The position numbers and the translations under genes were made by a program. 64,000 nucleotides of DNA from contig CALRMN020000015.1 of NCBI GenBank assembly GCA_943369245.1, positions 916 to 64,915 on the forward strand, in the 5' to 3' direction. Source of the stretch: Synechococcus sp. UW140. GTDB lineage: Bacteria > Cyanobacteriota > Cyanobacteriia > PCC-6307 > Cyanobiaceae. The notes under the pieces were generated by a model. The model had not been told where the DNA came from, made no database searches, and saw nothing but the letters and a program-made list of their open reading frames with translations. Of the stretch, positions 2,345 through 31,973 are shown one piece after another (position 1 is the stretch's first letter; every line of letters starts with the position of its first letter).

Positions 2345-2579
2345 ACAGCTAACGCAGGAAAAACAGCTGAGTTAATGAAGTTTAAGTGCCTTAGGCTATG
2401 AACACCTCTCACATTGGCATTATTGACTCTGGCCATGATAGAGGGGACCAGCCAAGCGTCTGATTATAGGTCCTAGACAATCGACGTGGGTGAAAAGGAA
2501 TGCTGACTCAAGGATATACATCTTTAGATATTAGAACACGAGCCTAGTCAGAAAAGGTTGTGGCGAACAATTTAAACAA

Positions 2580-3326: not shown

Positions 3327-3406
3327 TGGATGTAATTAACTTGAGCAAGAAGCTTTGAGACAATGGCTTTAGCTATAATTGAAGCAATAGGCATTGAAAT
3401 CTATTG

Positions 3407-4420: not shown

Positions 4421-4452
4421 AGTTGTTACTTAGTATGCATCAGTACTTCGGG

Positions 4453-5226: not shown

Positions 5227-5290
5227 GAATGGAAGAATCGCGAAGGAATGAAAACAAGTGTACTCACTATCTGGTAGGGCTAGTGCTGCA

Positions 5291-9260: not shown

Positions 9261-9263
9261 GGC

Positions 9264-10079: not shown

Positions 10080-10233
10080 GTTGTGGAGTGCCAGGCAGCC
10101 GGCCTTTGGCTTCATCAGCGGCTGGGATGCAGCAATCAAGGTGTTCAGGCGCTGCGGTGGTGCGGATGGTACGCGCCGCATCCCAGACCCCATGGTGCTT
10201 TTGGCGACAGCGTCGTTCTGATGCGCGGACTTG

Positions 10234-12830: not shown

Positions 12831-12842
12831 CCGCGCCGGTTC

Positions 12843-15977: not shown

Positions 15978-18857
15978 GTGCCGCTGAACCTGCCCCCGCC
16001 GTTGCAGGCCATGGCCCGCGGATCGGTGATCGGTGGGTTCGAGGGATTCGCTCCCGATGGCACCCTGGGCGGCTGGGCCTGCCCCCTGGCCGATCAGCCC
16101 GACGGAGCGCCCCCCCTGAGCGTGCTGCTCCAGGTGGAGGATCTGCTCAACCCCGGCCGCATCTGGAGTCTGGGAGCCGCGGAAGCCTCGCTGCCCCGCC
16201 CCGATCTCGTCCAGCAGGGGCTTGCCCGGAGCTGCGGCTTCGCCTTCCCGGGCCGCAGTGGCATGGAGATCCCCCCCCGCTCCACCGGCCTGGTGCTGCG
16301 CGCCCTCGTGCAGGGCGATCCCGCCGTGGAGCTGCCCGGAAGCCCCCTCCGCCTCGACGACGCCCGCTACCGGGCCCTCGAGCAGCTCGGCCGCCGCGCC
16401 GCCGGCCGCTCCGTGCGCCTCGACGCCCTGAGTGGCCCCTTCGTGGTGGGCTGGGCGCCCCCTGGCCAGGAGCTGGAACTGCGCCTCGATGGGGTGCCTG
16501 CCGGCCGGGCCAGCGCCAGGCCCGACGGGCAGTTCCATCTGCCCCTGCCCGCCGCCAGCTGCGATGGCCGTCCTCACCATCTCGCCATCCACGACGGCGA
16601 GGGGGTGCTGCGGGCCGAGAGCCTGGAGATCACCCCCTTCCAGCTCACCCCCTGGTCGGCCCTCCAGGACCATGGCCGGCCGCCCTTCCCCGACCAGCTC
16701 AACCCCCTGGCCCGGGAGCACCTCCGCAGCCTCACCACCTGGCTGCACTGGGCCGACACCCACGGCACCCCCCTGCCCGCCGACCTGCCCCTGCTGCAGC
16801 GGCTGCTGAGCGGACCCATCAGCCCCCCCGCCAACGCCGCCCCCGGCGAGGAGGCCGGGCCCCAGGGCGTGCCGGTGGCCCGCCAGCCGATCCACCTGCC
16901 GCTCAGCGCCGAACCCCTGGTGTCGGTGGTGGTGCCGGCCCACAACCAGTACGCCGTCACGCGCCGCTGTCTGGCCGCCCTGGCCTACGCCCCCACCCGC
17001 GTGCCCTTCGAGCTGATCGTCGTCGACGACGGCTCCTCCGACGGCACCGCCGAAGCCCTGAGCCGGGAGGCACCAGGCGTGCAGATGATCCGCCACGACT
17101 ACGCCCGCGGCTTCAACCAGGCCTGCCACAGCGGCGTGGCCGCCGCCCGCGGCAGCTTCATCGTGCTGCTCAACAACGACACCGAGCCCTGTGCCCTCTG
17201 GCTGGAGGAGCTGCTCGAGCCGTTCCAGCGCTGGCCCGACACCGGCATGACCGGCTCCCAGCTGCTCTATCCCGACGGACGGCTGCAGGAGGCCGGCGGC
17301 ATCGTCTGGGGCAATGGCGAACCCTGGAACTACGGGCGGGGGCGCAATCCCCATGAACCGGGCGTGAGCTACACCCGCCAGGTGGACTACGTGAGTGGTG
17401 CCGCCCTCGCCCTGCGGCGGGAGCTCTGGGGGCAGCTGGGCGGCTTCAGCCCTGAGTTCTCCCCCGCCTACTACGAGGACACCGATCTGGCCTTCAAGGT
17501 GCGCCAGGCCGGCCTGGTGGTGCGCTACGCCCCCCTCTCCCGGGTGATCCACCACGAGGGCCTCAGCTGCGGCACTGACACCAATCCCGAGACCAGCGAG
17601 GGCCTCAAGCGCTTCCAGACCCTGCATGGGCCCACGTTCCAGCGCAAGTGGCAGCACGCCTTCGAGGGGGAGAAGGAGCCCTCCTTCGAGGCCGCCGAGC
17701 GGATCAAGGACCGGGGCATCCTCGGCCGTGCCCTCTTCATCGATCACGCCACCCCACGCCCCGACCGGGATGCCGGCAGCCATGCCGCCCTGGCCGAGAT
17801 GGACCTGGTCCAGGCCCTCGGCTACAAGATCACCTTCCTGCCGGCCAACCTGGCCTGGCTCGGCACCTACACCGAGGAGCTGCAGCGCCGCGGCATCGAG
17901 GTGATCCATGCCCCCTTCGTGCTCTCCCTCGACCAGTTCCTCAGGGAGCGCGGCCGCGAATTCGACCTCATCTATCTCACCCGCTACACCACTGTGCGCG
18001 ACAGCCTGCCCCTGCTCAAGGAGCATGCCCCCCAGGCCCGGCTGATCTTCTGCAACGCCGACCTCCACTACCTGCGCGAGCTGCGCCAGGCCCAGAACGC
18101 CGGGCTCAGCGGCGAGCCCGGCGAAGCAGCCCTGGCCTCCGTGCGTGAAACCCGCCGCCAGGAGCTCGAGGCGATGGCCGGGGTCGACCTCACCCTCACC
18201 TACAGCGAGATCGAGCAGGCGGTGATCGCCGCCGAGACCCTCGGCCAGGCCGCCACCTCCCTCTGCCCCTGGGTGGTGGACCTGGTGGAACAGCCCTCAC
18301 CCCTGGTCAGCCGCAGCGGCATCACCTTCCTTGGTAGCTACCAGCACCCACCCAACCAGGACGCCGTGGAAAGCTTCCTCGGAGATGTCTGGCCCCTGCT
18401 GAACGAGCGTCTGCCCGAACTCGAGTTCCATCTCTATGGCAGCGGGCTGGGCCCCGAGCTGCAGGAGAGGTGGCAGTCCATCCAGGGGGTGCGGGTGCAC
18501 GGCTGGGTCACCGACGCCAGCTCGGTCTACGAGCGCCACCGGGTCTTCATCGCGCCGCTGCGCTCCGGCGCCGGCATCAAGGGCAAGGTGATCGCCGCCC
18601 TCGCCCACGGCATTCCCCAGGTGCTCAGCCCGGTGGCCGCCGAAGCCACCGGCTTGCGCCACGGTGCCGAGGCCTTCATCGCCCGCGAGCCCGAGGCCTG
18701 GTGCGCTGCCATCACCGACCTGATCGTCGACGACGGCCTCTGGAGCCGCACCAGCGAGGCCGCCCGTGACCACGCCCGGGCCCACTTCTCCCGCGGCCAC
18801 GGCCTCGATCTGATGGCCACCGCACTCGAGCGTCTCTCCCTGCCCTGCCGGCGATGA
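15978..18857 (+). CDS. Bifunctional GT2 + GT4 glycosyltransferase
   Basis: GT2: VSVVVPAHN, ELIVVDDGSSD, VLLNNDTE, LQEAGG, PAYYEDTDL. GT4-like: PDRDAGS, PPNQDAV, PLRSGAGIKGKVIAALAHGIPQV. GTG start. Confidence 0.92.
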   Translation: MPLNLPPPLQAMARGSVIGGFEGFAPDGTLGGWACPLADQPDGAPPLSVLLQVEDLLNPGRIWSLGAAEASLPRPDLVQQGLARSCGFAFPGRSGMEIPPRSTGLVLRALVQGDPAVELPGSPLRLDDARYRALEQLGRRAAGRSVRLDALSGPFVVGWAPPGQELELRLDGVPAGRASARPDGQFHLPLPAASCDGRPHHLAIHDGEGVLRAESLEITPFQLTPWSALQDHGRPPFPDQLNPLAREHLRSLTTWLHWADTHGTPLPADLPLLQRLLSGPISPPANAAPGEEAGPQGVPVARQPIHLPLSAEPLVSVVVPAHNQYAVTRRCLAALAYAPTRVPFELIVVDDGSSDGTAEALSREAPGVQMIRHDYARGFNQACHSGVAAARGSFIVLLNNDTEPCALWLEELLEPFQRWPDTGMTGSQLLYPDGRLQEAGGIVWGNGEPWNYGRGRNPHEPGVSYTRQVDYVSGAALALRRELWGQLGGFSPEFSPAYYEDTDLAFKVRQAGLVVRYAPLSRVIHHEGLSCGTDTNPETSEGLKRFQTLHGPTFQRKWQHAFEGEKEPSFEAAERIKDRGILGRALFIDHATPRPDRDAGSHAALAEMDLVQALGYKITFLPANLAWLGTYTEELQRRGIEVIHAPFVLSLDQFLRERGREFDLIYLTRYTTVRDSLPLLKEHAPQARLIFCNADLHYLRELRQAQNAGLSGEPGEAALASVRETRRQELEAMAGVDLTLTYSEIEQAVIAAETLGQAATSLCPWVVDLVEQPSPLVSRSGITFLGSYQHPPNQDAVESFLGDVWPLLNERLPELEFHLYGSGLGPELQERWQSIQGVRVHGWVTDASSVYERHRVFIAPLRSGAGIKGKVIAALAHGIPQVLSPVAAEATGLRHGAEAFIAREPEAWCAAITDLIVDDGLWSRTSEAARDHARAHFSRGHGLDLMATALERLSLPCRR

Positions 18858-19654
18858 GCACCACTCACCTCTCCGGTGTCAGGCCGCCCGCCCTGATCGC
18901 CATCTCCCCCCGCAAGCCCCTGCTCTCGGTGGACGAAACCAACCGCCTGCTGCGCCAGCAGGGGGTCTGCCTGGCCCTGGCCCAGGGGGTGGTGCTCGAT
19001 CGGGTCGTGCAGAGCATCAGCCTCAGCGACGACGAGGAGAATGCCCTGATGCGCGCCTACCTGGAGGGTGAAGGCGTCAAGGACGACCAGTCCCTGGCTT
19101 CCTGGCTGGCCCGCAAGGGCTGGTCGACGGCCGATCTGCGCTACTTCGCCACCAAGGCCGAACGGCTGCGTCGCTACAGCCAGGCCCGCTACGGCAGCGA
19201 AGCGGAGATCCGCTTTCTCGATCGCAAGCTCGATCTCGACCAAGTCACCTATTCCCTCCTGCGCGTCTCCGACCGCGACGAGGCCGAGGAGCTCTACCTG
19301 CAGCTGCGCGAAGGCGAGGCCGACTTCGCCGCCCTGGTGGCCGCCCATTCCGAGGGCCGCGAGCGCATCACCCGCGGCCTGATCGGCCCGATCGCCCTCA
19401 CCGCCGGCCACCCCAGCCTCACCGAGCGGCTGCGGGTGGGCAGCCCCGGCCAGCTCTGGCCGCCCTTCGAAGTGGCCGGATGGTGGCTGTTGGTGCGGCT
19501 CGAGCAGCGCTTTCCTGCTCAACTCGACGACGCCATGCGCGTCCGCATGGTGGACGAACTCTTCCAGGTCTGGTTCAAGGAGCAGGTGAGCCTGCTGATG
19601 GCCGGCGAAGACCTCATGCCCCTGCCCCGCGATCCCAACGCCCCGTCCGCATGA
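18854..19654 (+). CDS. PpiC/parvulin-type peptidyl-prolyl isomerase (T1SS-associated)
   Basis: VTYSLLRV, ADFAALVAAHSEG.E, GLIGPI, GQLWPPFEVAGWWLLVRLE; ATGA overlaps at both ends. Confidence 0.85.
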   Translation: MSTTHLSGVRPPALIAISPRKPLLSVDETNRLLRQQGVCLALAQGVVLDRVVQSISLSDDEENALMRAYLEGEGVKDDQSLASWLARKGWSTADLRYFATKAERLRRYSQARYGSEAEIRFLDRKLDLDQVTYSLLRVSDRDEAEELYLQLREGEADFAALVAAHSEGRERITRGLIGPIALTAGHPSLTERLRVGSPGQLWPPFEVAGWWLLVRLEQRFPAQLDDAMRVRMVDELFQVWFKEQVSLLMAGEDLMPLPRDPNAPSA

Positions 19655-22600
19655 GCACCATCCCCACCAGCCGCTCCGAACAACGCCAGAAGGCCCTGCT
19701 GGCCGGCGTCCGCCCCTTCGACCGCCTGCCCGCCGAGGTGCTGGCCGGTCTCGACTCCCTGCTCGACACCCGCCGCTACCGCCTCGGCCAGACCCTGCTG
19801 CGCCGCGAGAGCATGCCCGAGGGTCTGCTGCTGCTGCGCTCCGGCAGCCTGCGCGTGCTGGCCACCGACCCGCTCAGCGGTGATCTCACCACCATCGACC
19901 GGCTCCAAGCCGGCGCCTGCGTCGGCTGGTGTTCCCTGCTCAGCGGCGAGCCCTGCGAGCAGCTGCGCGTGTCGGCGGAGGCGGAGGTGCTGGTGCTGCC
20001 CACCGGCCTCTTCCACGACCTGCTCGCCGACCACGACGCCTTCCGGCTCTGGTACCAGACCACCCTGCCGGCCTCCGAGCTGCACCGGCTCCTGGTCGAC
20101 CTCCACAGCCAGAACCCCGCCTGGGCCGAAGCCCTGCGCGCCTGGCCCGCCATCCGCCCGGCGGCGCGGGTGCGCAGCCTCACCCCCTCCGACAAGGCCG
20201 ACGGCCCGCTCGCCCTCAGCGCCGAGCTCACCTGGTTCCACAGCAGCGGTGGTCCCCTCGGGCAGCCCTGGCCCATCGGCGGCAAGCCCGTGCCACCCCG
20301 TGCGGGTGCGCCCTGGCTGCGCCTGGTGGGGCTGCCGCCCCTTGACCAGCAGCCGGAAACAACCCCCGATCTGCAGATCGGCAGCGCGTCCGAAGCACCG
20401 GCCACCGAAGCCACGGCCCCGGACGCGGCGGCCTCCACCCCCGCTCCGCAGGCCGGGGCTCTGGCCCCCCCGCCGGCCCCGGGCAGCGGAGCGGGCACCT
20501 ATGCCCTCTCCCCGCCTGCGCCTGCCCCCCGCACGGATGGTCATGGCGAGGAGGCCGAGCTGCGCCTGCAGCGCGCCACCGGCCCCCGCGATGCTCCGAT
20601 CGCCGTCTGCATCGCCCTGGCCAACTACTTCGGCGTGCCGGTGAACCGCGATGCCCTGCGCGATCAGGTGCAGGCGGTTCTGGCCCGCCAGGGCAGCCTC
20701 AACCTGATCAACCTCGGCCAGATACTCGATGCCCTCGGGCTGCGGGTGGTGCTCACCAAGCTCCCCGCCGACCGCCTCGGCCGCGCCACCACCCCGGCCG
20801 TGTTCCACGCCCAGGGCCACTTCGCCATCCTCGAAGGCGTCGACGACGACGGGCGCCTGCGCCTGCTCGAACCCGAAATGGGCCCCCTGCTACTGCCGCC
20901 GGGCCAGCTCGCCGGCGACGGCGACGACGGGGTGGAGCTGCTGCTGCTGCAGCGCAAGAGCGACGCCAAGGAACAGACCTTTAGCTGGGGCTGGTTCCTG
21001 CCCTTCCTGCGCGAGCACCGCCGCCAACTGGTTGAAGTGGTGGCCCTCTCCTTCGTGATCAACCTGCTGGCCCTGGCCCAGCCACTGGGCCTGCAGGTGC
21101 TGATCGATCAGGTGGTGCGCCAGCGCAACGTCAACGCCCTGCTCACCATCTGCTTCGTGATGCTGCTGGCGGCCCTGGTGGCGGCCGTGCTCAAGACCCT
21201 GCGCGGCTACATCTTCACCGACACCGCCAACCGGGTGGACCAGGCCACCAAGAGCACCATCCTCGATCACCTGGTGCGGCTGCCCCAGGGCTTCTTCGAC
21301 AGCCGGCCGGTGGGCCAGGTGATGTTCTACTTCGGCCAGCTCGACAAGCTGCGCGACTTCCTGCTCGGCAACAGCCTCACCACCGTGGTGGATCTGGCCT
21401 TCAGCTTCCTCTACCTGTTCGTGCTGTTCGCCCTCAGCGTGCCGCTCACCTTCGCCACCCTCTCAACCCTGCCGCTGTTGCTGGCCCTCGCCTTCTTTAG
21501 CAACCCGCTGGTGCGCGCCCAGATCAAGCGCAGCATGGGCGCCTCGGTGAAGACCTACTCCTACCTCAACGAATCAATCACCGGCATCCAGACGATCAAA
21601 TCCCAAAACGCCGAACTGAAAACCCGCTGGGAGTTCCAGAACCGCTATGCCCGCTTCATCGGCGAAGACTTCAAACTCAAGATCACCAAAGAGACTATTA
21701 CCAATCTTGCAAATTTTATCAATGACCTAAACAGCCTGATCACGATTGGAGTAGGTGTCTATCTTCTCATTCAACAAGAGGCAACGATTGGTGGATTCAT
21801 CGCTTTCAGAATTCTTAGTGGTTACATTACCCGTCCTCTGGTACAGCTAATTACCACCTGGCAGACGTTCCAGCAGTGCACCGCCTCGATCCAGCTGGTG
21901 GCCGACGTGGTCGACCGCCCCACCGAGCAGAGCGACGCCGAGGCGCTCAACATCCCGATGCCGCCCCTCAGCGGCCGGGTGGAGTTCCAGAACGTGAGCT
22001 TCCGCTTCGCCGACGACGGCCCCCTCGTGCTCCAGGGCATCAACCTGGAGGTGCCTGCCGGATCCTTCGTGGGCATGGTGGGAGGCTCCGGCAGCGGCAA
22101 GAGCACCCTGCTCAAGCAGCTGCCCCGCTTCTACCGGCCGCTCGAGGGCAAGGTGGTGATCGATGGCCTCGACATCAACAAGGTTGAGCTCTACTCCCTG
22201 CGCCGCCAGATCGGCGTGGTGCCCCAGGACAGCGTGCTCTTCGACGGCACCGTGCGCGAGAACCTGCTGCTGGTGAAGCCCGACGCCACCGCCGACGAGA
22301 TGATCCGCGCCGCCCGCATCGCCTGCGCCCACGATTTCATCATGGAACTCCCCAAGGGCTACAACTCCGATGTGGGCGAGCGGGGTGCCGGTCTCTCCGG
22401 CGGCCAGCGCCAGCGCCTTGCCCTTGCCCGCGCCGTGCTCCAGAACCCCCGCATGCTCATCCTGGATGAAGCCACCAGCGCCCTCGATGCCCGCACCGAA
22501 CGCCAGGTCTGCATCAACCTCTTCGAAGCCTTCCGCGGCCGCACGGTGTTTTTCATCACCCACCGCCTCAGCACCGTCCAGCCGGCCGACTGCATCGTGA

Positions 22601-22710
22601 TGATGGACAAGGGCGCGATCATGGAGACGGGCAGCCACCGGGAGCTGATGCAGCGCCAGGGCTGGTACTACGCCCTCCATTCCAGCCAGGGTCAGGAGGG
22701 AGGTCTCTGA
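19651..22710 (+). CDS. hlyB: Type I secretion ABC transporter (HlyB family): cNMP-binding domain + C39-like domain + TMD + NBD
   Basis: Walker A GGSGSGKST, VVPQD Q-loop, signature LSGGQRQR, Walker B LILDEATSALD, FITHR; N-terminal CAP_ED-like segment; ATG at 19651. Confidence 0.93.
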   Translation: MSTIPTSRSEQRQKALLAGVRPFDRLPAEVLAGLDSLLDTRRYRLGQTLLRRESMPEGLLLLRSGSLRVLATDPLSGDLTTIDRLQAGACVGWCSLLSGEPCEQLRVSAEAEVLVLPTGLFHDLLADHDAFRLWYQTTLPASELHRLLVDLHSQNPAWAEALRAWPAIRPAARVRSLTPSDKADGPLALSAELTWFHSSGGPLGQPWPIGGKPVPPRAGAPWLRLVGLPPLDQQPETTPDLQIGSASEAPATEATAPDAAASTPAPQAGALAPPPAPGSGAGTYALSPPAPAPRTDGHGEEAELRLQRATGPRDAPIAVCIALANYFGVPVNRDALRDQVQAVLARQGSLNLINLGQILDALGLRVVLTKLPADRLGRATTPAVFHAQGHFAILEGVDDDGRLRLLEPEMGPLLLPPGQLAGDGDDGVELLLLQRKSDAKEQTFSWGWFLPFLREHRRQLVEVVALSFVINLLALAQPLGLQVLIDQVVRQRNVNALLTICFVMLLAALVAAVLKTLRGYIFTDTANRVDQATKSTILDHLVRLPQGFFDSRPVGQVMFYFGQLDKLRDFLLGNSLTTVVDLAFSFLYLFVLFALSVPLTFATLSTLPLLLALAFFSNPLVRAQIKRSMGASVKTYSYLNESITGIQTIKSQNAELKTRWEFQNRYARFIGEDFKLKITKETITNLANFINDLNSLITIGVGVYLLIQQEATIGGFIAFRILSGYITRPLVQLITTWQTFQQCTASIQLVADVVDRPTEQSDAEALNIPMPPLSGRVEFQNVSFRFADDGPLVLQGINLEVPAGSFVGMVGGSGSGKSTLLKQLPRFYRPLEGKVVIDGLDINKVELYSLRRQIGVVPQDSVLFDGTVRENLLLVKPDATADEMIRAARIACAHDFIMELPKGYNSDVGERGAGLSGGQRQRLALARAVLQNPRMLILDEATSALDARTERQVCINLFEAFRGRTVFFITHRLSTVQPADCIVMMDKGAIMETGSHRELMQRQGWYYALHSSQGQEGGL

Positions 22711-24203
22711 TGGCCAACAGCAGCGAGTCCTCCGGGTCTCTGGTCGACCTCTACGAGCGCGCCCTCGGCTGGCTGCGCTCCCCCCGCCGTCACCGGCCCC
22801 GCCGGGATCAGCGGGTGGTGCCGGTCCGCGTCGACCTGGTCGGCGACAGCCCCCCCCCAGCATCGGTTCCGGAGCCGGTGAACCATCCATTTCTGACTCC
22901 CGCCGCACCGGCTGACGCTGGCTCAGGCAGCCAGGGCGCCCTCGCCCCCCTCGCCACCGCCGACTGGCAGTTCAACCAGCCGGTGCTGCTGCGCAAGAGC
23001 GGCCGAGCCTCCAGCCTGATCGTCTGGACGCTGCTCGGTGGTGTGGGCGCCATCGGCGTCTGGGCCGTTCTGGCCCCCCTGGGTGAAACCATCGCCGTGC
23101 AGGGCAAGCTCCAGCCCGGCAGCAAGGTCAAGACGATCGAGGCGCCCGTGCCCGGTGTGATCGAAGCCGTGCTCGTCAAAGACGGCGAAAGCGTCCGCCA
23201 GGGACAGGAGCTCATCCGCTTCGATCTGCGCGAGACCCGCAGCCGCCTCACCGCCGCCGAGGCGATCCGCGAACGGCTGCTCAACGAGAACCAGATTCTC
23301 GCCGCCTCCCTGGGCGACACCCAGGCCAGCGGCCTCTCCGCCAACCAGCGGCTCCAGCTCAGCAACCAGAGCGAGGATCTGCGCACTAGGCGCCTGGCGG
23401 CCGACGAACAGCTGCGGGCCAGCGAGGCCCGGATCGCCGGCCTGCGCACCAGCCTGGCCACCGCCCGCAACATCGCCGAACGCTTCGAGGCGCTCGCGCG
23501 CAGCGGCGCCGTCAGCGAGGTGCAGGCCCTCGAGAGCCGCAACAAGGTCAATGAGATAGAGGCCAACCTCGCCAGCGAGGAGCGCACCGCCGCCAGCCTC
23601 AGCGCCTCGGCCCTCAACGCCGGTGCAGCCCCCGGCGCCGACCTGCGCGGCCGCATCGAGGCCAACCTGCGCCAGATCGCCGAACTCGACAGCCAGATCC
23701 GCCTGGCCCGGGTGCAGCTCCAGTACAGCGTGCTCACCGCCCCCAGCGCCGGCTCCGTCTTCGACATCGACGTCTCCCCCGGCTCGGTGGTGGAGAGCGC
23801 CAAGACACTCCTGCGGGTGGTCCCCGGCGATGCGCTCGAAGCAAAAGTGTTCATCCCCAACGATGTGATCGGCTTCCTCTCCCCCGGCCAGAGCGCCGAG
23901 ATCTCGATCGCCACCTTCCCCTCGTCCGAGTTCGGCAGCGTGCCCGCCACGGTGGAGCGCATCGGCTCCGATGCCCTCACCACCCAGGAGATGGCCGAAA
24001 CCCTCCAGACCGACGCCCAGGGCCTCTTCTATCCCGCCGTGCTGCAGCTGCGCCGCCAGAGCCTCCAGGGCAGCACCCGCCCGATTCCACTCAAGCCGGG
24101 CATGGCCCTCTCCGCCGACATCCAGCTCCGCCAGCGCACCTTCATCAGTCTGTTCACCAGCTTCCTCAACGACCGCCGCAAAGACCTCGAGCGCCTGCGC
24201 TGA
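22710..24203 (+). CDS. hlyD: HlyD-family membrane fusion (periplasmic adaptor) protein
   Basis: Single TM helix, IEAPVPGVIEAVLVKDGESVRQGQEL lipoyl-like motif, coiled coil, LTAPSAG, FPSSEFG, LKPGMALSADI. Confidence 0.92.
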   Translation: MANSSESSGSLVDLYERALGWLRSPRRHRPRRDQRVVPVRVDLVGDSPPPASVPEPVNHPFLTPAAPADAGSGSQGALAPLATADWQFNQPVLLRKSGRASSLIVWTLLGGVGAIGVWAVLAPLGETIAVQGKLQPGSKVKTIEAPVPGVIEAVLVKDGESVRQGQELIRFDLRETRSRLTAAEAIRERLLNENQILAASLGDTQASGLSANQRLQLSNQSEDLRTRRLAADEQLRASEARIAGLRTSLATARNIAERFEALARSGAVSEVQALESRNKVNEIEANLASEERTAASLSASALNAGAAPGADLRGRIEANLRQIAELDSQIRLARVQLQYSVLTAPSAGSVFDIDVSPGSVVESAKTLLRVVPGDALEAKVFIPNDVIGFLSPGQSAEISIATFPSSEFGSVPATVERIGSDALTTQEMAETLQTDAQGLFYPAVLQLRRQSLQGSTRPIPLKPGMALSADIQLRQRTFISLFTSFLNDRRKDLERLR

Positions 24204-24490
24204 TGGCCCGGCGCCCCACCCGCGAACCGGTGGCCGACTGGTCGGCCTATGTGCCCCCCGGCCGGCGCCGCAGCCTGCTGCTGAAGCGGGCCTGCCACCG
24301 CTTTCGCTCCAGCCTCGCGAGCCAGAGGGTGCTGATCACACTGATGGTGCTGATTTACCTGGCCATCTGCCTCGGCCTCATCCTCTGGGGAGGGCTCAGC
24401 CTCGGTGTGCTGGCCCTGCTGCCCCTCCTGCTCGGCCCTCCCGTGGGCTATCTCGCCTACTGGCTGGTCTGGCGGGAGTTCCACGAATGA
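24203..24490 (+). CDS. Small two-TM membrane protein
   Basis: Two hydrophobic helices, ending LAYWLVWREFHE; TGATG overlap with hlyD. Confidence 0.7.
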   Translation: MARRPTREPVADWSAYVPPGRRRSLLLKRACHRFRSSLASQRVLITLMVLIYLAICLGLILWGGLSLGVLALLPLLLGPPVGYLAYWLVWREFHE

Positions 24491-24529
24491 ACTGAACTCC
24501 CAGCCCGTGCGCCCAGCTGGGGCCGGAAC

Positions 24530-25675
24530 TCAGCCCTGCTGGCTGGCCCGGCCCCGCAGTGTGGTGAGTTCCTGCAGCAGCCACTCGGGCAGAACCTTCT
24601 CGGCCGAGCTGAGGTTGACTTTGTTGGCGGGGTAGTAGAGCAGCGCCGCCATCAAAGCGTTCAGGGCGCGGGGATGGCGCATCGAGGTCACGATCTCCCC
24701 CAGCCGACGGCGGGCGGCATCCTCCTCGGCGGGCATGGCCTCCCGGCTGAATCCCGAGCCGATCAGGTTCTGGCTGAGCTGGCCGAAGGGGGCCCGGTAG
24801 AGGGTCTCCAGGTTCTCGGGTTCCACATCCAGCCAGATCTGCGCCACCTGCCGCCGCAGCACGGCCAGTTCGCGCTTGAGTTCGGCGTCGGTCGGATCGA
24901 TCGCGTAGAGGTTGATCAGGCCGCTCATCCGGCCCAGGAATTCGTTGTCCTGGATCAGGGGCAAGCAGGCCTCTCCCCGCTTCTCGGAGAACAGGGGCAG
25001 GGGCCTGTTGTCGGCCGGGGAGGAGGGGGAAGCAGGGGCCAGTGCAGGGACTCCACCGGCGGCGGTGGAGCCGGTGCCGCCCTGCTGCCTCAGGCGCAGT
25101 TTCTGCAGCAGCTGGGGATCGCAGCGCTCGGCATAGTCGCCCAGCAGCCACTTCGGGATCTGCCGCAGCGGATCAGCCACCTTCATGGCGTTCCGGTCGT
25201 AATAGGGCATCACGGCCAGCAGCAGATTGGGAGTCTCGTGATGCTCGAAGGCCTTGAGCAGCCGCTGGCTCAGGCCTGCCTTCCAGCGTTCATCGATGGG
25301 CCGCAATGGAAGAGCAGGCAGCACGCCACGCAGCATCAACCTGTAGGCCTCACCGATCGGCCCGCTGTAGAGGATCTCCAGACAATCCACCGGAGCGCTG
25401 AGCCAGAAGCGGGTGAAGCAGGAACGCGCGGCCTGGGCATCCTGCACGGCCTGCTGGTTGGGGGATTGGTCGAGTTGAGTGAAGATCGTCTGCAACCGCC
25501 GCACCGACCAGGCGGTGATCTCCATCGGCAGTTCGATCTCGTCCTGGGGGCTGCTGCTGACCAGGCGGTTGACGGACAGAGCCACGGCGGCAGGGACCGG
25601 CTCCAGGTCCGGCTCGGACGTCTGTCGCCCATGGGAGTGGCTGCCGCGACCGAACAGACTGCGCAGGGAAGGCAT
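24530..25675 (-). CDS. Hypothetical helical protein with an internal two-fold duplication
   Basis: Repeats FWLSAPVDCLEILY / IWLDVEPENLETLY, LLLAVMPYY / LMAALLYY, IPKWLL / LPEWLL. Confidence 0.75.
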   Translation of the reverse strand: MPSLRSLFGRGSHSHGRQTSEPDLEPVPAAVALSVNRLVSSSPQDEIELPMEITAWSVRRLQTIFTQLDQSPNQQAVQDAQAARSCFTRFWLSAPVDCLEILYSGPIGEAYRLMLRGVLPALPLRPIDERWKAGLSQRLLKAFEHHETPNLLLAVMPYYDRNAMKVADPLRQIPKWLLGDYAERCDPQLLQKLRLRQQGGTGSTAAGGVPALAPASPSSPADNRPLPLFSEKRGEACLPLIQDNEFLGRMSGLINLYAIDPTDAELKRELAVLRRQVAQIWLDVEPENLETLYRAPFGQLSQNLIGSGFSREAMPAEEDAARRRLGEIVTSMRHPRALNALMAALLYYPANKVNLSSAEKVLPEWLLQELTTLRGRASQQG

Positions 25676-25756
25676 CGAAGTGCGCGGGCGAAAAATCTGC
25701 GTGAACTGTACCGACGTTTTTCAGGACTTATGTTGTATGCAAGACAGCCGCGGTCG

Positions 25757-26986
25757 ATGCAAGACCTGCTGATCCATCAGGCATTCCCGGCCCAGTTCCT
25801 GCCCATCGTCGAGTCCCTGCTGGCGGCTGGCCATGAGGTCCATGCCATTGGTGCCGATGGGGCCGCCGCGCTGCCGTCCGGCTGCCGGTTCCACCCTTAC
25901 GAGGCTCCCGCGGCGGAACGGCTGCCTCCCGGCCTCAGCGATCCGGGGCTGGAGAGCGCCCTGATCCGCGGCGAGAGGGTGGCGGACCTGGCCCGGTCCC
26001 TGAAACAGAAGGGTCTTGAGCCACGCCTGATCCTGTTCCACAGCGCCTGGGGCGAGGGGCTCTACCTGCGTGAGCTCTGGCCCGATGCGCTGCTGGTCAC
26101 CTATCCGGAACTGTTCGGCTCCGAGTCCCTGCTCGGAACCGCCGATCCGGACACCCCGCCCCTCAGCGACGGGCGCCGCCGCCTGCTGGTGCGCAACAAC
26201 CTGATGGCGCTCTCGGCCCTGGCCGCCGCCGACGCCGCCCTCACCCCCACCCTCTTCCAGCGCGACAGCTTTCCGGCCCCCTGGCGCGGCCGCTTCCAGG
26301 TGATCCACGAAGGGATCGACACCGCCAGCCTGCGTCCGGCCCCGCCGCGGGGCCTGCGCCTCGGCGCCGACCTGGTGCTGGCTGCCGACGTGCCCCTGCT
26401 CACCTTCGTGAGCCGCAACCTTGAGCCCCTGCGCGGGTTCTGCCGCTTCATGCGGGCCCTGCCGTTCCTCCTTGGTAACCACCCCGATCTCCAGGTGGTG
26501 ATCGTGGGGGGGCACGGCCACACCTACAGCCCGCCCAGCCCACATCCCGACGGCTACCTGGGCGCCATGGTCGAACTGCTGGGCGATGGCATCGATCGAC
26601 GGCGGTGTCATGCCGTGGGCCAGCTGCCTCGTGATCAGCTCACTGCCCTGCTGCAGCGCAGCACTGTGCACGCCTATCTCTCCCATCCCTACGTGCTCTC
26701 CTGGAGCCTGCTGGAGGCGATGGCCTGCGGAGCGGCCGTGGTGGCCTCCGACACGGCGCCGGTGCGAGAGGTGATCCGGGACGGGGTGAATGGTCGCCTG
26801 GTGCCCCTCGACAATCCGGCCGGGATCGCCGCGGGCCTCGATGCCCTACTGCGCGACCCGGAAGCCCGGCGCTCCCTCGGCCAGGCAGCCCGGGCCACCG
26901 TGCTGGAGCGCTACCGCCGTGATCGCTGCCTGGAGGCCTTCAACCGCTGGATCGAGTCGCTGCTGCTGCTGCGCTCCAGCCGCTGA
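25757..26986 (+). CDS. Glycosyltransferase family 4 (HQxFPxQF type)
   Basis: LIHQAFPAQF, HSAWGEGLYL, VIHEGIDT, FVSRNLEPLRGF, PYVLSWSLLEAMACG; ATG at 25757 in frame. Confidence 0.9.
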   Translation: MQDLLIHQAFPAQFLPIVESLLAAGHEVHAIGADGAAALPSGCRFHPYEAPAAERLPPGLSDPGLESALIRGERVADLARSLKQKGLEPRLILFHSAWGEGLYLRELWPDALLVTYPELFGSESLLGTADPDTPPLSDGRRRLLVRNNLMALSALAAADAALTPTLFQRDSFPAPWRGRFQVIHEGIDTASLRPAPPRGLRLGADLVLAADVPLLTFVSRNLEPLRGFCRFMRALPFLLGNHPDLQVVIVGGHGHTYSPPSPHPDGYLGAMVELLGDGIDRRRCHAVGQLPRDQLTALLQRSTVHAYLSHPYVLSWSLLEAMACGAAVVASDTAPVREVIRDGVNGRLVPLDNPAGIAAGLDALLRDPEARRSLGQAARATVLERYRRDRCLEAFNRWIESLLLLRSSR

Positions 26987-28256
26987 AGGCCGTGAGCAGC
27001 CGCTCGATCGCACTGGCCCAGTCTCCCGTCGCGCTCTGACGAAACAGCCGCAGCGAGCCATACCAAGGGCTGTCGTCCCGCTGCCGCAGCCAGCGGGGAT
27101 CGGCGCTCCAGGGCAGCAGAATCCAGCCGGTGGCCCCCATGGCACCCACCAGATGGGCCATGGCGGTGTCGACACTGATCACCAGATCCAGCTGGGCCAC
27201 CACCCGCGCCACATGGGCGAAGTCGCCCAGATCCAGCCGTGGTGCACTCAGCTGGAAACCCAGTGCGGCCGCCAGCTCCTGATCGTCGCCGAACTGAAGC
27301 GGGATCAGCGCGGCACCGGCCTGGCGCAGGCCATCGATCAGCTGCCAGAGGGCCAGGGGGGGCAGGCTGCGTTTCAGATACTCCCGCTGGGTGAAGGGGT
27401 CGTCGAGCTTGCGTCCCGACGCCCAGACCAGTCCGACCCGTGGCCCGTCCGGCAGACCGTCGGGCAGCAGGGAGACGCCGGTGGCGCTCCAGAGAGGTGA
27501 GTGCAGTGTGGGCTGGACCGATTCGGCCATGGGCCCTGTACCCAGCAGATGCGGCAGGCTCATCAGGGGCCCATGAGCAGCCAGGGGCTGGAAGGTCAGC
27601 GCCTGCTTGGCCACCACGCGAGGAGGAGCCTCCATCCAGGCCAGACCCTCCTGCAGGATCCGCACGAGGTTGGCCTCCACCACCAGATGCAGCGGGCCGG
27701 GCCGCCGGGCCAGAGCGGGGATCCAACGCAGATACTGAAAGGTGTCGCCATAGCCCTGCTCACTCCAGGTCCAGAGGGGCTGGTCTGGATCGAGATCCTC
27801 CATGCTCCCCCCACCCCAGAACGGGGCCGGCCGGAAGGGGCTCCAGCTCGCCAGCCTGCAGCGGGCCTCGGCGGCGGCGAACGCTTCGCCGTAGCGCTCC
27901 AGGCCGATCAGCAGCTGGCTCAGCCCCCAGCGGGCCTGCTCATCGCCGGCATCCTCATAGAGGGGCACCGCCTCCTCGAACCGGTTGAGATCCCGCAGGG
28001 TGTTGGCCAGGCCGCAGAGCGCGGCGGATACCCCGATCGAATCAGCCAGTGCTCTCCGGTAGGGGTGCTCGGCCGCCTGAGGGAGGTCGGCCATCCACAG
28101 GGCGTGGCCGAGATTGCACCACACCCGGCCGTCACCTGGCTCAAGGGTCAGGGCGCGGCCATAGGCGGTCGCGGCGGCCAGCCAGTCGTGGCTGCGCTCA
28201 TGGGCGGCGGCGATCTGAAGCCACTCAACCGACTGCTGGGGCTGGGACACGGCCAT
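26940..28256 (-). CDS. TPR-containing GT9-like glycosyltransferase
   Basis: TPRs (WCNLGHALW, LCGLANTLRDLNRFEEA), then EQGYGDTFQYLRWI, VGLVWASG, LDLVISVDTAMAHLVGA, DSPWYGSLRLFRQ; start at 28256 or 28301. Confidence 0.88.
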   Translation of the reverse strand: MAVSQPQQSVEWLQIAAAHERSHDWLAAATAYGRALTLEPGDGRVWCNLGHALWMADLPQAAEHPYRRALADSIGVSAALCGLANTLRDLNRFEEAVPLYEDAGDEQARWGLSQLLIGLERYGEAFAAAEARCRLASWSPFRPAPFWGGGSMEDLDPDQPLWTWSEQGYGDTFQYLRWIPALARRPGPLHLVVEANLVRILQEGLAWMEAPPRVVAKQALTFQPLAAHGPLMSLPHLLGTGPMAESVQPTLHSPLWSATGVSLLPDGLPDGPRVGLVWASGRKLDDPFTQREYLKRSLPPLALWQLIDGLRQAGAALIPLQFGDDQELAAALGFQLSAPRLDLGDFAHVARVVAQLDLVISVDTAMAHLVGAMGATGWILLPWSADPRWLRQRDDSPWYGSLRLFRQSATGDWASAIERLLTAFSGWSAAAAATRSSG

Positions 28257-28657
28257 GGGGTCTGTGGTCACCAGCGGAGCACAGCGCGGAGCCTGCTCCA
28301 AACGAGACCCAGCATGGCTCTGTCAGGAGAGGCCGACCTGGATCTTCATCCATAAGCAATACTTATGAAGCATTCTCTTTCTCATTAAGCGATGTGTCGT
28401 TAGCTGCATTTTCCAAGAGGTATTTGTATTCGACGAGTCGTTTCAGCGTCAATTCTGAGCGATGGGACACACGCCAGTCACAACCTGTCGCAGGCCGAAT
28501 TCGCTTACCAAGTAGCATTCAATACATGATGCATGTGCTTCTCGCGAGTCTCTGCTTGCAACGGAACGACAGATCCAGACAACTCTGGTAGCTTTCGGTG
28601 ACTCGGGAATCCATTCCGGATTTCAACTTCACCTGAGTTCAATCTCACTCTGAAGCC

Positions 28658-29113
28658 ATGCCTACTACCCTGTCCATCAGCGGCGGTTATTCGAAATTTC
28701 TAGAGAGGCTCGAAGACCGCTTTGAAGATGCACCCCCTTCCTTCAAGGAAAAGCTCGGTGTCTTCGGCGAAAAAATCGAAAATTCCATTGACTTTTTACA
28801 GGACAGAGTCGACCAAAATGACGATCTGATCATTGGGGACAAACTCGGCGAGGAGATTTTCACCAAGCTCAACAAGTTTTTCCCTAACGGCGAAGAATCC
28901 ATTGCCCTTGGCATCGATTTCCTGAAGTCAGAGCCTGCGCCAAGCGATTTCCCGGAAGTTACAGATGTCATCGACTCTGTTTCTCCAATCGTGTTCGGCT
29001 CCACCGAGGAAACCGGCGGCGGTGGATCCGACCTTCTTGGTCTTCTCGATCAACTCCCTGGTAATGACAATCTTGGTCCGCTCGACGATTTCTTCCCAGG
29101 TGGACGGAACTGA
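28658..29113 (+). CDS. Small acidic protein with C-terminal RTX-like nonapeptides; candidate T1SS substrate
   Basis: 151 aa, about 31 D/E versus 12 K/R, no Cys/His/Trp, no signal peptide; GGGGSDLLG and QLPGNDNLG near the C-terminus; followed by a terminator. Confidence 0.75.
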   Translation: MPTTLSISGGYSKFLERLEDRFEDAPPSFKEKLGVFGEKIENSIDFLQDRVDQNDDLIIGDKLGEEIFTKLNKFFPNGEESIALGIDFLKSEPAPSDFPEVTDVIDSVSPIVFGSTEETGGGGSDLLGLLDQLPGNDNLGPLDDFFPGGRN

Positions 29114-29160
29114 CCCTCAGGTTAGATTCACGCCCAGCTTTGACTAATTGAAGAGCACCG

Positions 29161-29192
29161 AACCCTGGAGCCTCAAGGCTCCAGGGTTTTTT
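29161..29192 (+). terminator. Intrinsic terminator, probably shared by the convergent 28658-29113 gene and clpB
   Basis: Perfect 12-bp stem AACCCTGGAGCC-tcaa-GGCTCCAGGGTT followed by a T run. Confidence 0.85.
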
Positions 29193-31842: not shown

Positions 31843-31973
31843 GGAGGATCTCCTCTTGGGTGGTCGTTGGAGGAAGGCTATGAACGACCCCAAGGCCAGC
31901 ACAGGATGGGTAGCCCGAAACAATTGGCGAATCATCCGAACGGCAGTTCAGGCCGGTCCGTAACGTCAAGCCC

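What the first reader, a model, noticed from the sequence alone, without database searches (positions are those of the whole stretch)
15978..29192. Putative T1SS-coupled protein-glycosylation system
Seen: GT2-GT4, PPIase, HlyB, HlyD and a small membrane protein form an unbroken chain of ATGA/TGATG overlaps (18854-7, 19651-4, 22710, 24203). They are followed by a helical-repeat protein, GT4, TPR-GT9 and a small RTX-like protein. A divergent glycan operon starts at 15847. Established: TPR-fused GTs often act on protein acceptors, and cyanobacterial surface glycoproteins (SwmA, S-layers) depend on T1SS plus nearby GTs. Inference: a self-contained fold-glycosylate-export machine for a surface glycoprotein. 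TolC must be encoded elsewhere.
Basis: partly seen in the sequence, partly recalled or inferred. Interest (0 to 1): 0.75.

Follow-up and report, generated by a model that had tools for sequence, protein, structure and literature searches.

The report
Secretion pump cassette with sugar-adding enzymes
A freshwater picocyanobacterium carries a conserved gene cassette that joins a one-step protein export pump to several soluble sugar-adding enzymes and a small, highly variable acidic protein that is probably the exported cargo; this makes testable how such exported proteins could get their sugars.

Summary
GT2-GT4 fusion, parvulin-type PPIase, ABC exporter, HlyD and a 95-aa two-helix membrane protein are chained by ATGA/TGATG overlaps. 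They are followed by a helical protein (- strand), a GT4 (+), a TPR-GT9 (- strand) and a 151-aa acidic protein (+).

The PPIase-ABC-HlyD core matches the 'group I bacteriocin cluster' of cyanobacteria (Wang 2011). Its C39-like domain has no catalytic cysteine, so it looks like a HlyB-type type I secretion system. The genome has a second, near-universal copy and a TolC-like gene elsewhere.

The whole cassette is syntenic in at least 10 related genomes. Every complete copy carries, next to the TPR-GT9 gene, an acidic, cysteine-free protein with a shared N-terminus (M-x-T-T/L-T-L-S). Distant copies have RTX-like GxGxD repeats. This gene is the divergence hot spot of the locus.

Across the family, 39 of 40 assessable PF12000-type GT4 genes lie within 20 kb of such an export module. 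No lipid-carrier, flippase or polymerase gene is in the island.

Export system plus cargo plus linked GTs is well supported. Glycosylation of the cargo remains inferred.

The parts
15978..18857 (+). GT2-GT4 fusion glycosyltransferase (959 aa). It is soluble and has a 300-aa N-terminal domain with no family match. It is the first gene of the export operon.
   Evidence: Pfam GT2 at residues 316-439 and Glyco_trans_1_4 at 781-917. No TM segment. 73-94% identical orthologues sit directly upstream of the PPIase in all close cassettes.
18854..19654 (+). SurA-like, PpiC/parvulin-type PPIase (266 aa). It has no signal peptide, so it is predicted to be cytoplasmic.
   Evidence: Rotamase_2 27.9 bits; TIGR04500 'peptide maturation' 41.8 bits, below its cut-off. 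ATGA overlaps on both sides. A 43% identical paralogue sits in the second module on C10.
19651..22710 (+). Long-type ABC exporter (1019 aa): cNMP-binding domain, Pro/Ala-rich linker, C39-like domain without a catalytic Cys, six-helix TMD and NBD.
   Evidence: Pfam. Best NCBIfam model is TIGR01846 HlyB. E. coli HlyB structures 7sgr/8dck match residues 323-1007. No conserved Cys at the catalytic position in 18 homologues.
22710..24203 (+). HlyD-family periplasmic adaptor (497 aa) with one TM helix near residue 102.
   Evidence: HlyD_3 71.9 bits; TIGR01843 192 bits against a cut-off of 208.65.
24203..24490 (+). 95-aa basic protein with two TM helices, start-overlapped with hlyD. It is specific to this cassette type.
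   Evidence: Conserved at 45-87% identity at the same position in all cassettes, including distant ones (90-95 aa gene calls in L046-L049). TM scan. No family match.
24530..25675 (-). 381-aa protein made of two duplicated all-helical domains joined by a disordered linker. Function unknown. It is a core member of the cassette.
   Evidence: GC3 pattern. About 100 homologue clusters, all unnamed and all from picocyanobacteria. AF2 model with pLDDT 84.5 and two domains above 90. No PDB fold match with E below 0.1. Internal repeat with E = 9e-6.
25727..26986 (+). GT4 glycosyltransferase with a PF12000 (Glyco_trans_4_3) N-domain (419 aa), soluble.
   Evidence: PF12000 113.5 bits, Glycos_transf_1 78 bits. 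The family-wide link of PF12000 genes to PPIase-ABC-HlyD modules.
26940..28301 (-). TPR + GT9-like (heptosyltransferase-fold) protein (about 440-453 aa). It is always adjacent to the cargo gene.
   Evidence: TPR_1 41 bits. Glyco_transf_9 only 16 bits, below its cut-off, but the same weak hit recurs in the L047-L049 orthologues. Present in every cassette. It is the most divergent enzyme of the cassette.
28658..29113 (+). p151, the candidate cargo: 151 aa, pI 4.05, no Cys, no signal peptide, with degenerate RTX-like motifs.
   Evidence: Positional orthologues in all complete cassettes. Found in 6 of 61 relatives, only in cassette-bearing genomes and always adjacent. Only 7 clusters among 5.8 billion. 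Distant cassettes have 255-338-aa proteins with the same N-terminus and GxGxD repeats.
29160..29189 (+). Strong hairpin terminator (13-bp stem plus T-run) between p151 and the convergent clpB.
5962..15847 (-). Divergent operon of soluble glycan enzymes: 662-aa and 594-aa paralogues, GT14, a sulfotransferase-like protein, a methyltransferase, a TPR-GT2 and a GT4. Whether it belongs to the same pathway is uncertain.
   Evidence: No TM proteins.

Best explanation
The region is an accessory, lineage-restricted copy of the cyanobacterial PPIase / long-type ABC / HlyD export module. It most likely works as a HlyB-type type I secretion system together with the TolC-like protein encoded elsewhere.

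Its most likely cargo is the adjacent hypervariable, acidic, cysteine-free p151-family protein, a degenerate RTX-like beta-roll protein.

Inferred mechanism:
1. The cargo is made in the cytoplasm and kept export-competent by the signal-less parvulin-type PPIase.
2. It is recognised by the TPR-GT9, and possibly by the two-domain helical protein.
3. It is O-glycosylated by soluble GTs: TPR-GT9 as primer, then the PF12000 GT4 and the GT2-GT4 fusion as extenders.
4. It is passed through the non-catalytic C39-like domain of the ABC protein and exported in one step. The cNMP-binding domain may make export responsive to a cyclic nucleotide.

Shown: the gene content, the overlaps, the synteny, the strict cargo-cassette co-occurrence, the statistical GT-module linkage, the loss of the protease cysteine, and the absence of lipid-linked glycan genes. 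Inferred: which protein is exported, that it is glycosylated, and the order of the steps.
For: (1) Exporter identity. Pfam and NCBIfam hits, and a match to E. coli HlyB structures over residues 323-1007. A TolC-like OEP is present on C17.

(2) The catalytic Cys of C39 is replaced by A/G/V/I/T in cassette copies and by E in the universal copies. The His is not conserved either. Leader cleavage, i.e. the bacteriocin mode, is therefore unlikely.

(3) The trio corresponds to the 'group I' clusters of Wang et al. 2011 (PMC3140520). The HlyB/HlyD analogues Sll1180/Sll1181 of Synechocystis export the S-layer protein Sll1951 (Agarwal 2018, as cited in PMC11594277).

(4) Cargo.
- The p151 family is present only in cassette-bearing genomes and always at the same position.
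- pI is 4.0-4.4, with no Cys and no signal peptide.
- Distant cassettes carry 255-338-aa proteins with the same N-terminal motif and GxGxD-x-hydrophobic repeats.
- The AF2 model is all-beta (pTM 0.81). Its top 12 PDB hits are all RTX beta-roll proteins, but all are non-significant.

(5) GT linkage.
- GT2-GT4 is translationally coupled to the exporter operon.
- In the family, 39 of 47 PF12000 GT4 genes lie within 20 kb of a PPIase module. That is 39 of the 40 that share a contig with one, at a median distance of 6.9 kb. In other cyanobacterial families the count is 0 of 9.
- In G008:C27 the PF12000 GT4 follows hlyD end to start.
- In G032 and G008 the universal module is followed by RTX-type proteins (PF00353 above its cut-off in G032, below it in G008), a PF12000 GT4 and, in G008, a sulfotransferase.

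(6) The only integral membrane proteins in the island are the ABC protein, HlyD and the 95-aa protein (one low-GC ORF, 1262-2344, has a single hydrophobic N-terminal segment). The 40 kb upstream in the complete genome of the close relative G004 has no multi-TM ORF.

(7) Type I substrates bypass the periplasm (established knowledge). Glycosylated type I substrates known in cyanobacteria, SwmA and oscillin (PMC3034196; PMC2943079), would therefore need cytoplasmic GTs.

(8) TPR + GT-B fusions acting on proteins exported unfolded have a precedent in FlmG (PMC7591256).
Against: - There are no expression or protein data. No RNA runs are available.
- p151 itself has no Pfam RTX match, and the whole genome has no PF00353 protein.
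- The fold matches of the cargo model are non-significant (E > 0.1).
- The GT9 assignment is below the Pfam cut-off.
- The HlyB and HlyD NCBIfam scores are below their trusted cut-offs.
- The cargo gene is 4.2 kb from the exporter operon, separated by three genes on alternating strands.
- The glycan toolkit is much larger than needed for a 151-aa protein: at least 9 GT domains, sulfo-, pyruvyl- and methyltransferases.
- A heavily glycosylated chain may not fit a type I channel.
- Co-location of surface-structure genes in variable islands can occur without a shared pathway.
Confidence: 0.4

Rival explanations
1. Exporter and cargo are real, but the GTs build a separate cell-surface glycan: an LPS O-chain, an exopolysaccharide or an S-layer anchor glycan. 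That glycan would be started and exported by genes elsewhere. The secreted acidic protein then works with that glycan outside the cell or is merely co-located in a surface-variability island. This would resemble the Sinorhizobium meliloti galactoglucan cluster, where the ExpD1/ExpD2 type I system secretes the Ca-binding ExpE1 (my own recollection, not checked here).
For: - The toolkit is large and varied: GT2, GT4, GT14 and GT25, three sulfotransferase-like genes, a pyruvyl transferase and a methyltransferase. This is typical of polysaccharide decoration.
- The left part of the island has low GC and is hypervariable.
- The contig ends 915 bases left of the window, so further genes of the island in this genome are unseen.
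- Pyruvyl transferases (PF04230) are named for polysaccharide acceptors.
Against: - There is no phosphoglycosyl transferase, flippase, polymerase or ABC-2 permease in the window or in the 40 kb upstream in G004.
- GT2-GT4 is translationally coupled to the exporter.
- The PF12000 GT4 tracks the export modules across the family, even where no large glycan cluster was seen.
- The TPR-GT9 is always next to the cargo gene and diverges with it.
Confidence: 0.3
2. The ABC/HlyD pair exports a glycan or glycoconjugate made by the soluble GTs rather than a protein. p151 would then be an unrelated or accessory gene.
For: - No other exporter is present in an island full of GTs.
- Related B-family ABC proteins export glucans or lipid-linked sugars. 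The NCBIfam list includes the ChvA glucan exporter, HepA and PglK at lower scores.
Against: - The best models are HlyB-type protein exporters with a C39-like substrate-docking domain.
- Relatives' modules are flanked by RTX-type proteins, with PF00353 above its cut-off in G032.
- The Synechocystis homologues are reported to export a protein.
- The cargo gene co-occurs strictly with the cassette.
Confidence: 0.1
3. It is a bacteriocin-type system, as the module was first catalogued. p151 would be a double-glycine-type precursor (N-terminal ...SGG) or a glycosylated bacteriocin, exported by the ABC protein, with the 95-aa membrane protein acting as immunity factor.
For: - Wang et al. 2011 class the SurA + long ABC + HlyD trio as group I bacteriocin clusters with precursors of 45-164 aa.
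- p151 has Gly-Gly at residues 9-10.
- A small membrane protein follows hlyD.
- The cargo is hypervariable, as toxin-immunity pairs often are.
Against: - The peptidase cysteine is absent in every homologue.
- The putative 'leader' is only about 10 residues. GG is replaced by GS, or the motif is absent, in other members.
- The 95-aa protein is well conserved (87% in G004) while the cargo is 58%, so the two do not co-vary.
- Larger family members look like RTX beta-roll proteins.
Confidence: 0.08

Closest known systems
'Group I' putative bacteriocin gene clusters of cyanobacteria (Wang, Fewer & Sivonen 2011, PMC3140520)
   Same: The same three genes in the same order: SurA-like rotamase, long-type ABC protein with a CAP_ED/cNMP domain plus a C39 domain, and HlyD. 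They occur in 1-3 copies per genome. This genome has two.
   Different: - The C39 domain here and in all homologues checked lacks the catalytic Cys, so a protease/bacteriocin role is doubtful.
- This copy is an accessory paralogue, about 42% identical to the universal one.
- It is extended by a 95-aa membrane protein, a helical protein, three GTs and a dedicated cargo gene.
HlyB/HlyD/TolC type I secretion with a C39-like domain; Sll1180/Sll1181/Slr1270 of Synechocystis exporting the S-layer protein Sll1951
   Same: ABC exporter with a non-catalytic C39-like domain, HlyD adaptor, TolC encoded elsewhere, and acidic Cys-free Gly/Asp-repeat cargo.
   Different: - An extra N-terminal cNMP-binding domain.
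- A co-transcribed cytoplasmic PPIase and GT.
- The cargo is small (107-338 aa) and has only degenerate RTX-like motifs.
- I did not check that Sll1180 is orthologous to either copy.
SwmA (Synechococcus WH8102) and oscillin: glycosylated RTX surface proteins of cyanobacteria
   Same: Type I-type surface proteins reported as glycosylated (PMC3034196; PMC2943079). From my own recollection, motility mutants of WH8102 map to an ABC transporter and to glycosyltransferases (McCarren & Brahamsha; paper not held).
   Different: No sequence relationship of p151 to SwmA was tested. SwmA is 130 kDa and forms an S-layer. The glycosylating enzymes of SwmA are not defined.
FlmG-type cytoplasmic protein O-glycosyltransferases (TPR + GT-B) acting on flagellins (PMC7591256)
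   Same: An N-terminal TPR domain fused to a GT-B domain. The enzyme is soluble. The substrate would be a protein exported unfolded by a dedicated machine. The gene lies next to the presumed substrate gene.
   Different: Homology to FlmG was not tested. The GT domain here is GT9-like and scores below the cut-off. The export route is type I, not flagellar type III.
Accessory Sec (SecA2/Y2) with GtfA/B for serine-rich repeat adhesins; heptosyltransferases of autotransporters (TibC/AAH)
   Same: A dedicated export system encoded together with cytoplasmic GTs that modify the cargo before export (established knowledge).
   Different: Different transporters and different GT families. This is an analogy only.

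Membership tests
HlyB-type type I secretion system | ABC half-transporter with a TMD and an NBD of the HlyB subfamily | tested here: met
   ABC_membrane 113 bits and ABC_tran 113 bits. TIGR01846 is the best model (612 bits) but below its trusted cut-off of 725. E. coli HlyB structures match residues 323-1007.
HlyB-type type I secretion system | N-terminal C39-like domain lacking the catalytic Cys | tested here: met
   Peptidase_C39 23.5 bits. The position of the DCG cysteine holds A/G/V/I/T or E in 18 homologues. The alignment to the motif was made by hand from the conserved xACxxM helix.
HlyB-type type I secretion system | HlyD-family membrane fusion protein encoded next to the ABC gene | tested here: met
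   HlyD_3 71.9 bits. TIGR01843 192 bits, slightly below its cut-off of 208.65. TGATG overlap with the ABC gene.
HlyB-type type I secretion system | TolC-like outer membrane factor | tested here: met
   PF02321 gives two repeats in a 601-aa ORF at C17:2593-3852 of the same genome. Its partnership with this system was not tested.
HlyB-type type I secretion system | Cargo with RTX repeats and an uncleaved C-terminal signal | tested here: inconclusive
   p151 has no PF00353 hit, and neither does the whole genome. Distant cassette cargos have GxGxD repeats but no Pfam hit. RTX-type proteins, PF00353-positive in G032, flank related modules in G032 and G008. The C-terminal signal cannot be defined by sequence.
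Group I cyanobacterial 'bacteriocin' cluster (Wang 2011) | SurA-like rotamase + long-type (CAP_ED + C39) ABC + HlyD | tested here: met
Group I cyanobacterial 'bacteriocin' cluster (Wang 2011) | Active C39 peptidase cleaving a double-glycine leader | tested here: not met
   No catalytic Cys. The N-terminal GG in p151 is not conserved in the family.
Cytoplasmic protein O-glycosylation system (TPR-GT type) | Soluble GT with a protein-binding repeat domain fused to a GT-B domain | tested here: met
   TPR_1 41 bits plus a GT9-like C-terminal domain (16 bits, below its cut-off, but recurrent in orthologues). No TM segment.
Cytoplasmic protein O-glycosylation system (TPR-GT type) | Demonstrated glycan on the acceptor protein | not testable with these tools
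   Needs mass spectrometry of the secreted protein.
Lipid-carrier-dependent polysaccharide / O-antigen cluster | Initiating phosphoglycosyl transferase, Wzx/Wzy or an ABC-2 permease | tested here: not met
   A hydropathy scan finds no multi-TM protein other than the ABC protein among 22 island genes, and none in the 40 kb upstream in G004. The scan is crude, and genes elsewhere in the genome are not excluded.
Glycocin (SunS/GccA-type) cluster | Cys-containing precursor, active C39 ABC and thiol-disulfide oxidoreductases | tested here: not met
   The cargo is Cys-free, C39 is inactive and no thioredoxin-like gene was seen.

The most novel reading that the evidence does not exclude
Picocyanobacteria have a dedicated cytoplasmic glycosylation pathway for type I secretion cargo. 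A TPR-GT9 enzyme would recognise the conserved N-terminal M-x-T-T/L-T-L-S tag of a hypervariable RTX-like protein and prime it. PF12000-type GT4 enzymes, which track the PPIase-ABC-HlyD modules family-wide, and the operon-coupled GT2-GT4 fusion would extend the glycan. The parvulin and the C39-like domain would hand the glycoprotein to the exporter under cyclic-nucleotide control. The cargo gene would be replaced by recombination as a surface-antigen locus.
Probability: 0.3. Interest if true: 0.8.

Novelty: new variant of a known kind. Interest (0 to 1): 0.6.

Why it matters
Several cyanobacterial surface proteins that leave the cell by type I secretion are reported to be glycosylated: SwmA, oscillin and, by my recollection, the Synechocystis S-layer protein. 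As far as I know it has not been established where and by which enzymes this happens, given that type I cargo never enters the periplasm.

This cassette offers a compact, conserved and genetically tractable candidate. It has an exporter, one small cargo and three linked soluble GTs, and it is present in cultured freshwater Synechococcus/Cyanobium strains.

The analysis also suggests that the widespread 'group I bacteriocin clusters' of cyanobacteria are protein exporters with a dead protease domain. The PF12000 GT4 family appears to be their regular companion in picocyanobacteria.

The cargo gene is the divergence hot spot of the locus. That pattern is expected for a surface structure exposed to phages or grazers.

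Tried and rejected
- Canonical RTX cargo in this genome: none. There is no PF00353 hit, and a regex for GGxGxD runs found none either.
- Active bacteriocin protease: rejected, because no catalytic Cys is present.
- Sequence search of the C39-like segment alone against the PDB: no hit.
- PDB sequence searches with the TPR-GT9, PPIase and GT4b: only generic TPR, parvulin and GT4 matches, which do not tell the acceptor type.
- Fold search with the helical protein model: no significant match.
- Fold search with the cargo model: RTX beta-roll proteins rank first, but all have E > 0.1.
- RNA-seq evidence for co-transcription: no RNA runs hold the locus, only lake metagenome DNA.
- Sigma-70 promoter scan: uninformative, with 1 site found against 0.7 expected.
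- The McCarren & Brahamsha 2005 motility-mutant paper could not be read. Statements about it rest on my memory.
- Searching this genome for further proteins with the cargo N-terminal motif found only p151.
- The helical protein shows no homology to other cassette proteins.
- My ClpB row in the dN/dS table is erroneous and was discarded. Nucleotide identity was used for that flank instead.

Full report
**1. What is there**

The window is C15:916-64915 of a 2.99-Mb, 70% GC picocyanobacterial genome from lake water. Its closest relatives are named Synechococcus sp. CBW1107, J7-Johnson and Cruz-7E5, and Cyanobium sp. CZS48M. A codon-position GC analysis and Pfam/NCBIfam scans give this gene map:

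| Coordinates | Strand | Product |
|---|---|---|
| 13859-15847 | - | unknown 662-aa protein, first gene of the divergent operon |
| 15978-18857 | + | GT2-GT4 fusion |
| 18854-19654 | + | PpiC-type PPIase |
| 19651-22710 | + | ABC exporter |
| 22710-24203 | + | HlyD |
| 24203-24490 | + | 95-aa two-TM protein |
| 24530-25675 | - | 381-aa helical protein |
| ~25727-26986 | + | GT4 with a PF12000 N-domain ('GT4b') |
| 26940-28301 | - | TPR + GT9-like protein |
| 28658-29113 | + | 151-aa acidic protein ('p151') |
| 29160-29189 | + | strong terminator |
| 29209-31935 | - | clpB |

Everything to the right of clpB is housekeeping. To the left, a minus-strand operon of soluble glycan enzymes runs into a low-GC segment (42-44% GC) with a GT25, sulfotransferases and a pyruvyl transferase.

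**2. The exporter**

The ABC protein has a cNMP-binding domain, a Pro/Ala-rich linker, a C39-like domain, a TMD and an NBD. Its best family model is HlyB-type type I secretion (TIGR01846, 612 bits, below the trusted cut-off). It aligns with E. coli HlyB structures over residues 323-1007.

At the place of the C39 'DCG' catalytic cysteine, the cassette proteins read D-A/G/V/I/T-P. The paralogous universal copies read E-E-P. The histidine is not conserved either. This is therefore a non-catalytic C39-like domain of the kind that docks unfolded cargo in HlyB (established knowledge), not a leader peptidase.

A TolC-like gene sits on contig C17.

The genome holds a second PPIase-ABC-HlyD trio on C10, 43%, 42% and 33% identical respectively. 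Homologues of that trio occur in 50 of 61 related cyanobacterial genomes.

This trio is the 'group I bacteriocin gene cluster' of Wang et al. 2011: SurA-like rotamase, 'long-type' ABC with a CAP_ED and a C39 domain, and HlyD. It occurs in 1-3 copies in all but one of the genomes they surveyed, and few precursors were found for it (PMC3140520). In Synechocystis the HlyB/HlyD analogues Sll1180/Sll1181 are reported to export the S-layer protein Sll1951 (cited in PMC11594277).

**3. The cassette is a conserved unit**

The order is unk662(-) | GT2-GT4, PPIase, ABC, HlyD, 95-aa (+) | helical(-) | GT4b(+) | TPR-GT9(-) | small acidic protein | clpB. This order recurs with 45-95% protein identity (exporter and GTs 54-95%) in L024-L029, L039-L042 and L046.

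More distant versions (L047-L049) were found through the helical protein at 37-42% identity. They keep PPIase, ABC, HlyD, a 90-95-aa protein, the helical protein and the TPR-GT9-like protein. GT4b is present in two of the three, and a GT2/GT4 fusion in two of the three.

The cassette is accessory. It is present in 6 of 11 genomes of the genus and in 2 of 26 other genera of the family.

**4. The candidate cargo**

p151 is acidic (pI 4.05), has no Cys and has no signal peptide. Every complete cassette has a gene of this kind at the same position, next to the TPR-GT9 gene.

A profile of five members finds the family in 6 of 61 relatives, all of them cassette-bearing, with one copy each, always adjacent. 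G010 has a 107-aa S/T-rich version that the profile missed. Only 7 clusters exist among 5.8 billion proteins.

Members share these features:
- the N-terminus M-x-(A)-T-T/L-T-L-S-x-G
- an ESISLG motif
- a P-V-V-F-G-G-x-E motif
- an SDLVG motif

In the distant cassettes the gene at this position encodes 255-338-aa proteins with pI 4.2-4.5 and no Cys. They are S/T/N-rich and begin MPTLTLSS, MATLTLSS or MAATLTLQ. They carry repeats such as TGNGNDTLIFANT, LGEGADVVYF and MGEGNDLVIFGG.

An AF2 model of one of them is all-beta (pTM 0.81, pLDDT 70). Its top twelve PDB neighbours are all RTX beta-roll proteins secreted by type I systems, but every hit has E > 0.1, so this is only suggestive.

p151 itself and the whole genome lack a Pfam RTX match.

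**5. Divergence pattern**

The comparison is with G004, the closest complete genome.

| Segment | Nucleotide identity |
|---|---|
| GT2-GT4 and PPIase | 95-96% |
| ABC and HlyD | 87-96% |
| 95-aa, helical, GT4b | 86-90% |
| TPR-GT9 | 82-84% |
| p151 | ~72%, or not alignable |
| clpB | 92-96% |

Protein identities are 95, 94, 90, 78 and 58% for PPIase, GT2-GT4, helical protein, TPR-GT9 and p151.

Synonymous differences are saturated in p151 (pS 0.77) against 0.11-0.35 in its neighbours, while pN/pS is about 0.33. This looks like replacement by old, divergent alleles centred on the cargo gene, not simple relaxation. It is the pattern known from surface-antigen loci.

**6. Are the GTs tied to the exporter?**

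Three observations say yes.

- GT2-GT4 shares an ATGA overlap with the PPIase gene, and this holds in all close cassettes.
- PF12000-type GT4 genes track the export modules. In the window's family, 39 of 47 such genes lie within 20 kb of a PPIase module. That is 39 of the 40 that share a contig with one, at a median distance of 6.9 kb. 28 of 48 modules have one. My rough estimate of the chance expectation is about 3%. In other cyanobacterial families the figure is 0 of 9.
- Other architectures repeat the theme. In G008:C27 the genes run PPIase-ABC-HlyD-PF12000 GT4 end to start, with a GT2-GT4 homologue, an RTX protein and a sulfotransferase nearby. In G032 the universal module is followed by two PF00353 RTX proteins and then a PF12000 GT4. 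In G008 it is followed by a sulfotransferase, two RTX-like proteins and two PF12000 GT4 genes.

**7. Protein or polysaccharide acceptor?**

This cannot be decided by sequence. A hydropathy scan finds the ABC protein, HlyD and the 95-aa protein as the only integral membrane proteins among 22 island genes; one low-GC ORF (1262-2344) has a single hydrophobic N-terminal segment. The 40 kb upstream of the cassette in the complete genome G004 has no multi-TM ORF. So there is no phosphoglycosyl transferase, flippase, polymerase or ABC-2 permease.

Type I cargo bypasses the periplasm (established knowledge). The glycosylated type I proteins reported from cyanobacteria (SwmA, oscillin; PMC3034196; PMC2943079) would therefore need cytoplasmic GTs, which is what this cassette supplies. 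TPR + GT-B enzymes that glycosylate proteins before export have a precedent in FlmG (PMC7591256).

Against this, the toolkit in the divergent operon is very large for so small a protein. Initiating and export genes could lie elsewhere. Pyruvyl and sulfo decoration is typical of polysaccharides.

**8. Other components**

The 381-aa protein is an internal duplication (E = 9e-6) of an all-helical domain. It is modelled with high confidence (pLDDT above 90 in both domains) but has no structural neighbour. About 100 homologue clusters exist, all unnamed and all from picocyanobacteria. A role as cargo chaperone or GT scaffold is a guess.

The 95-aa two-TM protein is specific to this cassette type and well conserved (87% in G004). 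This argues against an immunity protein that co-varies with the cargo.

**9. Verdict**

- The exporter is a type I system of a catalogued cyanobacterial kind (about 0.9).
- The small acidic protein is its likely cargo (about 0.6).
- Linkage of soluble GTs to these modules is statistically strong.
- That the cargo is glycosylated by them is inferred (about 0.4 for the joint model).

The cassette is a new variant of a known kind. It is worth testing because it could show how type I cargo becomes glycosylated.

Noticed in passing
own genome C10:24558-29415 (outside the window): A second PPIase-ABC-HlyD trio, 43/42/33% identical to the cassette copy. It has no PF12000 GT, no 95-aa gene and no obvious cargo nearby. 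The genome has no PF00353 RTX protein at all, so the cargo of this near-universal module in this organism is unknown.
   Followed up: partly
L024/L050 (G004:C1, about 2806160-2807830): In the closest complete relative (Synechococcus sp. CBW1107 by the name on its helical-protein homologue), the GT2-GT4 gene is split near codon 70 by an insertion of about 1.67 kb that is absent from the window. It may be a mobile element. The strain may be a natural GT2-GT4 mutant.
   Followed up: partly
window 21600-22200: Inside the ABC transmembrane region, nucleotide identity to G004 drops to 87% between flanks of 95-96%. GC is also lower there, and the only sigma-70-like hit of the region lies there on the minus strand (21722-21694). 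This fits an earlier first-reader note of an AT-rich patch, and may be a recombination tract.
   Followed up: partly
window 1-5300: A low-GC (42-44%) segment at the contig end encodes a pyruvyl transferase, a GT25, a sulfotransferase and unknown proteins. This is typical of a horizontally exchanged, hypervariable glycan island. The contig starts only 915 bases left of the window.
   Followed up: partly
window 10234-12018 and 13859-15847 (- strand): Two paralogous proteins of about 600 aa (30-32% identical) with no Pfam family flank the GT14 and sulfotransferase-like genes. Orthologues of the 662-aa one sit next to the cassette in most relatives.
   Followed up: partly
L035 (G032:C1:1357700-1363200), L036 (G008:C32:200700-206300), G008:C27:17700-18600: In relatives the export modules are flanked by RTX-type proteins (PF00353 about 50 bits in G032; GGAGND repeats in G008:C27; only a sub-cut-off hit in L036). 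Next to the G008:C32 (L036) module lies a clear sulfotransferase (PF13469, 102 bits), between hlyD and the cargo genes. [quoted passage not shown]
   Followed up: partly
window 29160-29189: A 13-bp GC-rich hairpin with T-runs lies between the convergent p151 and clpB genes. It could terminate both. p151 thus looks like a monocistronic unit.
   Followed up: no
window 25676-25726: Only 51 bp separate the divergent starts of the helical-protein gene and GT4b. Either the promoters overlap or one start codon is placed wrongly.
   Followed up: no
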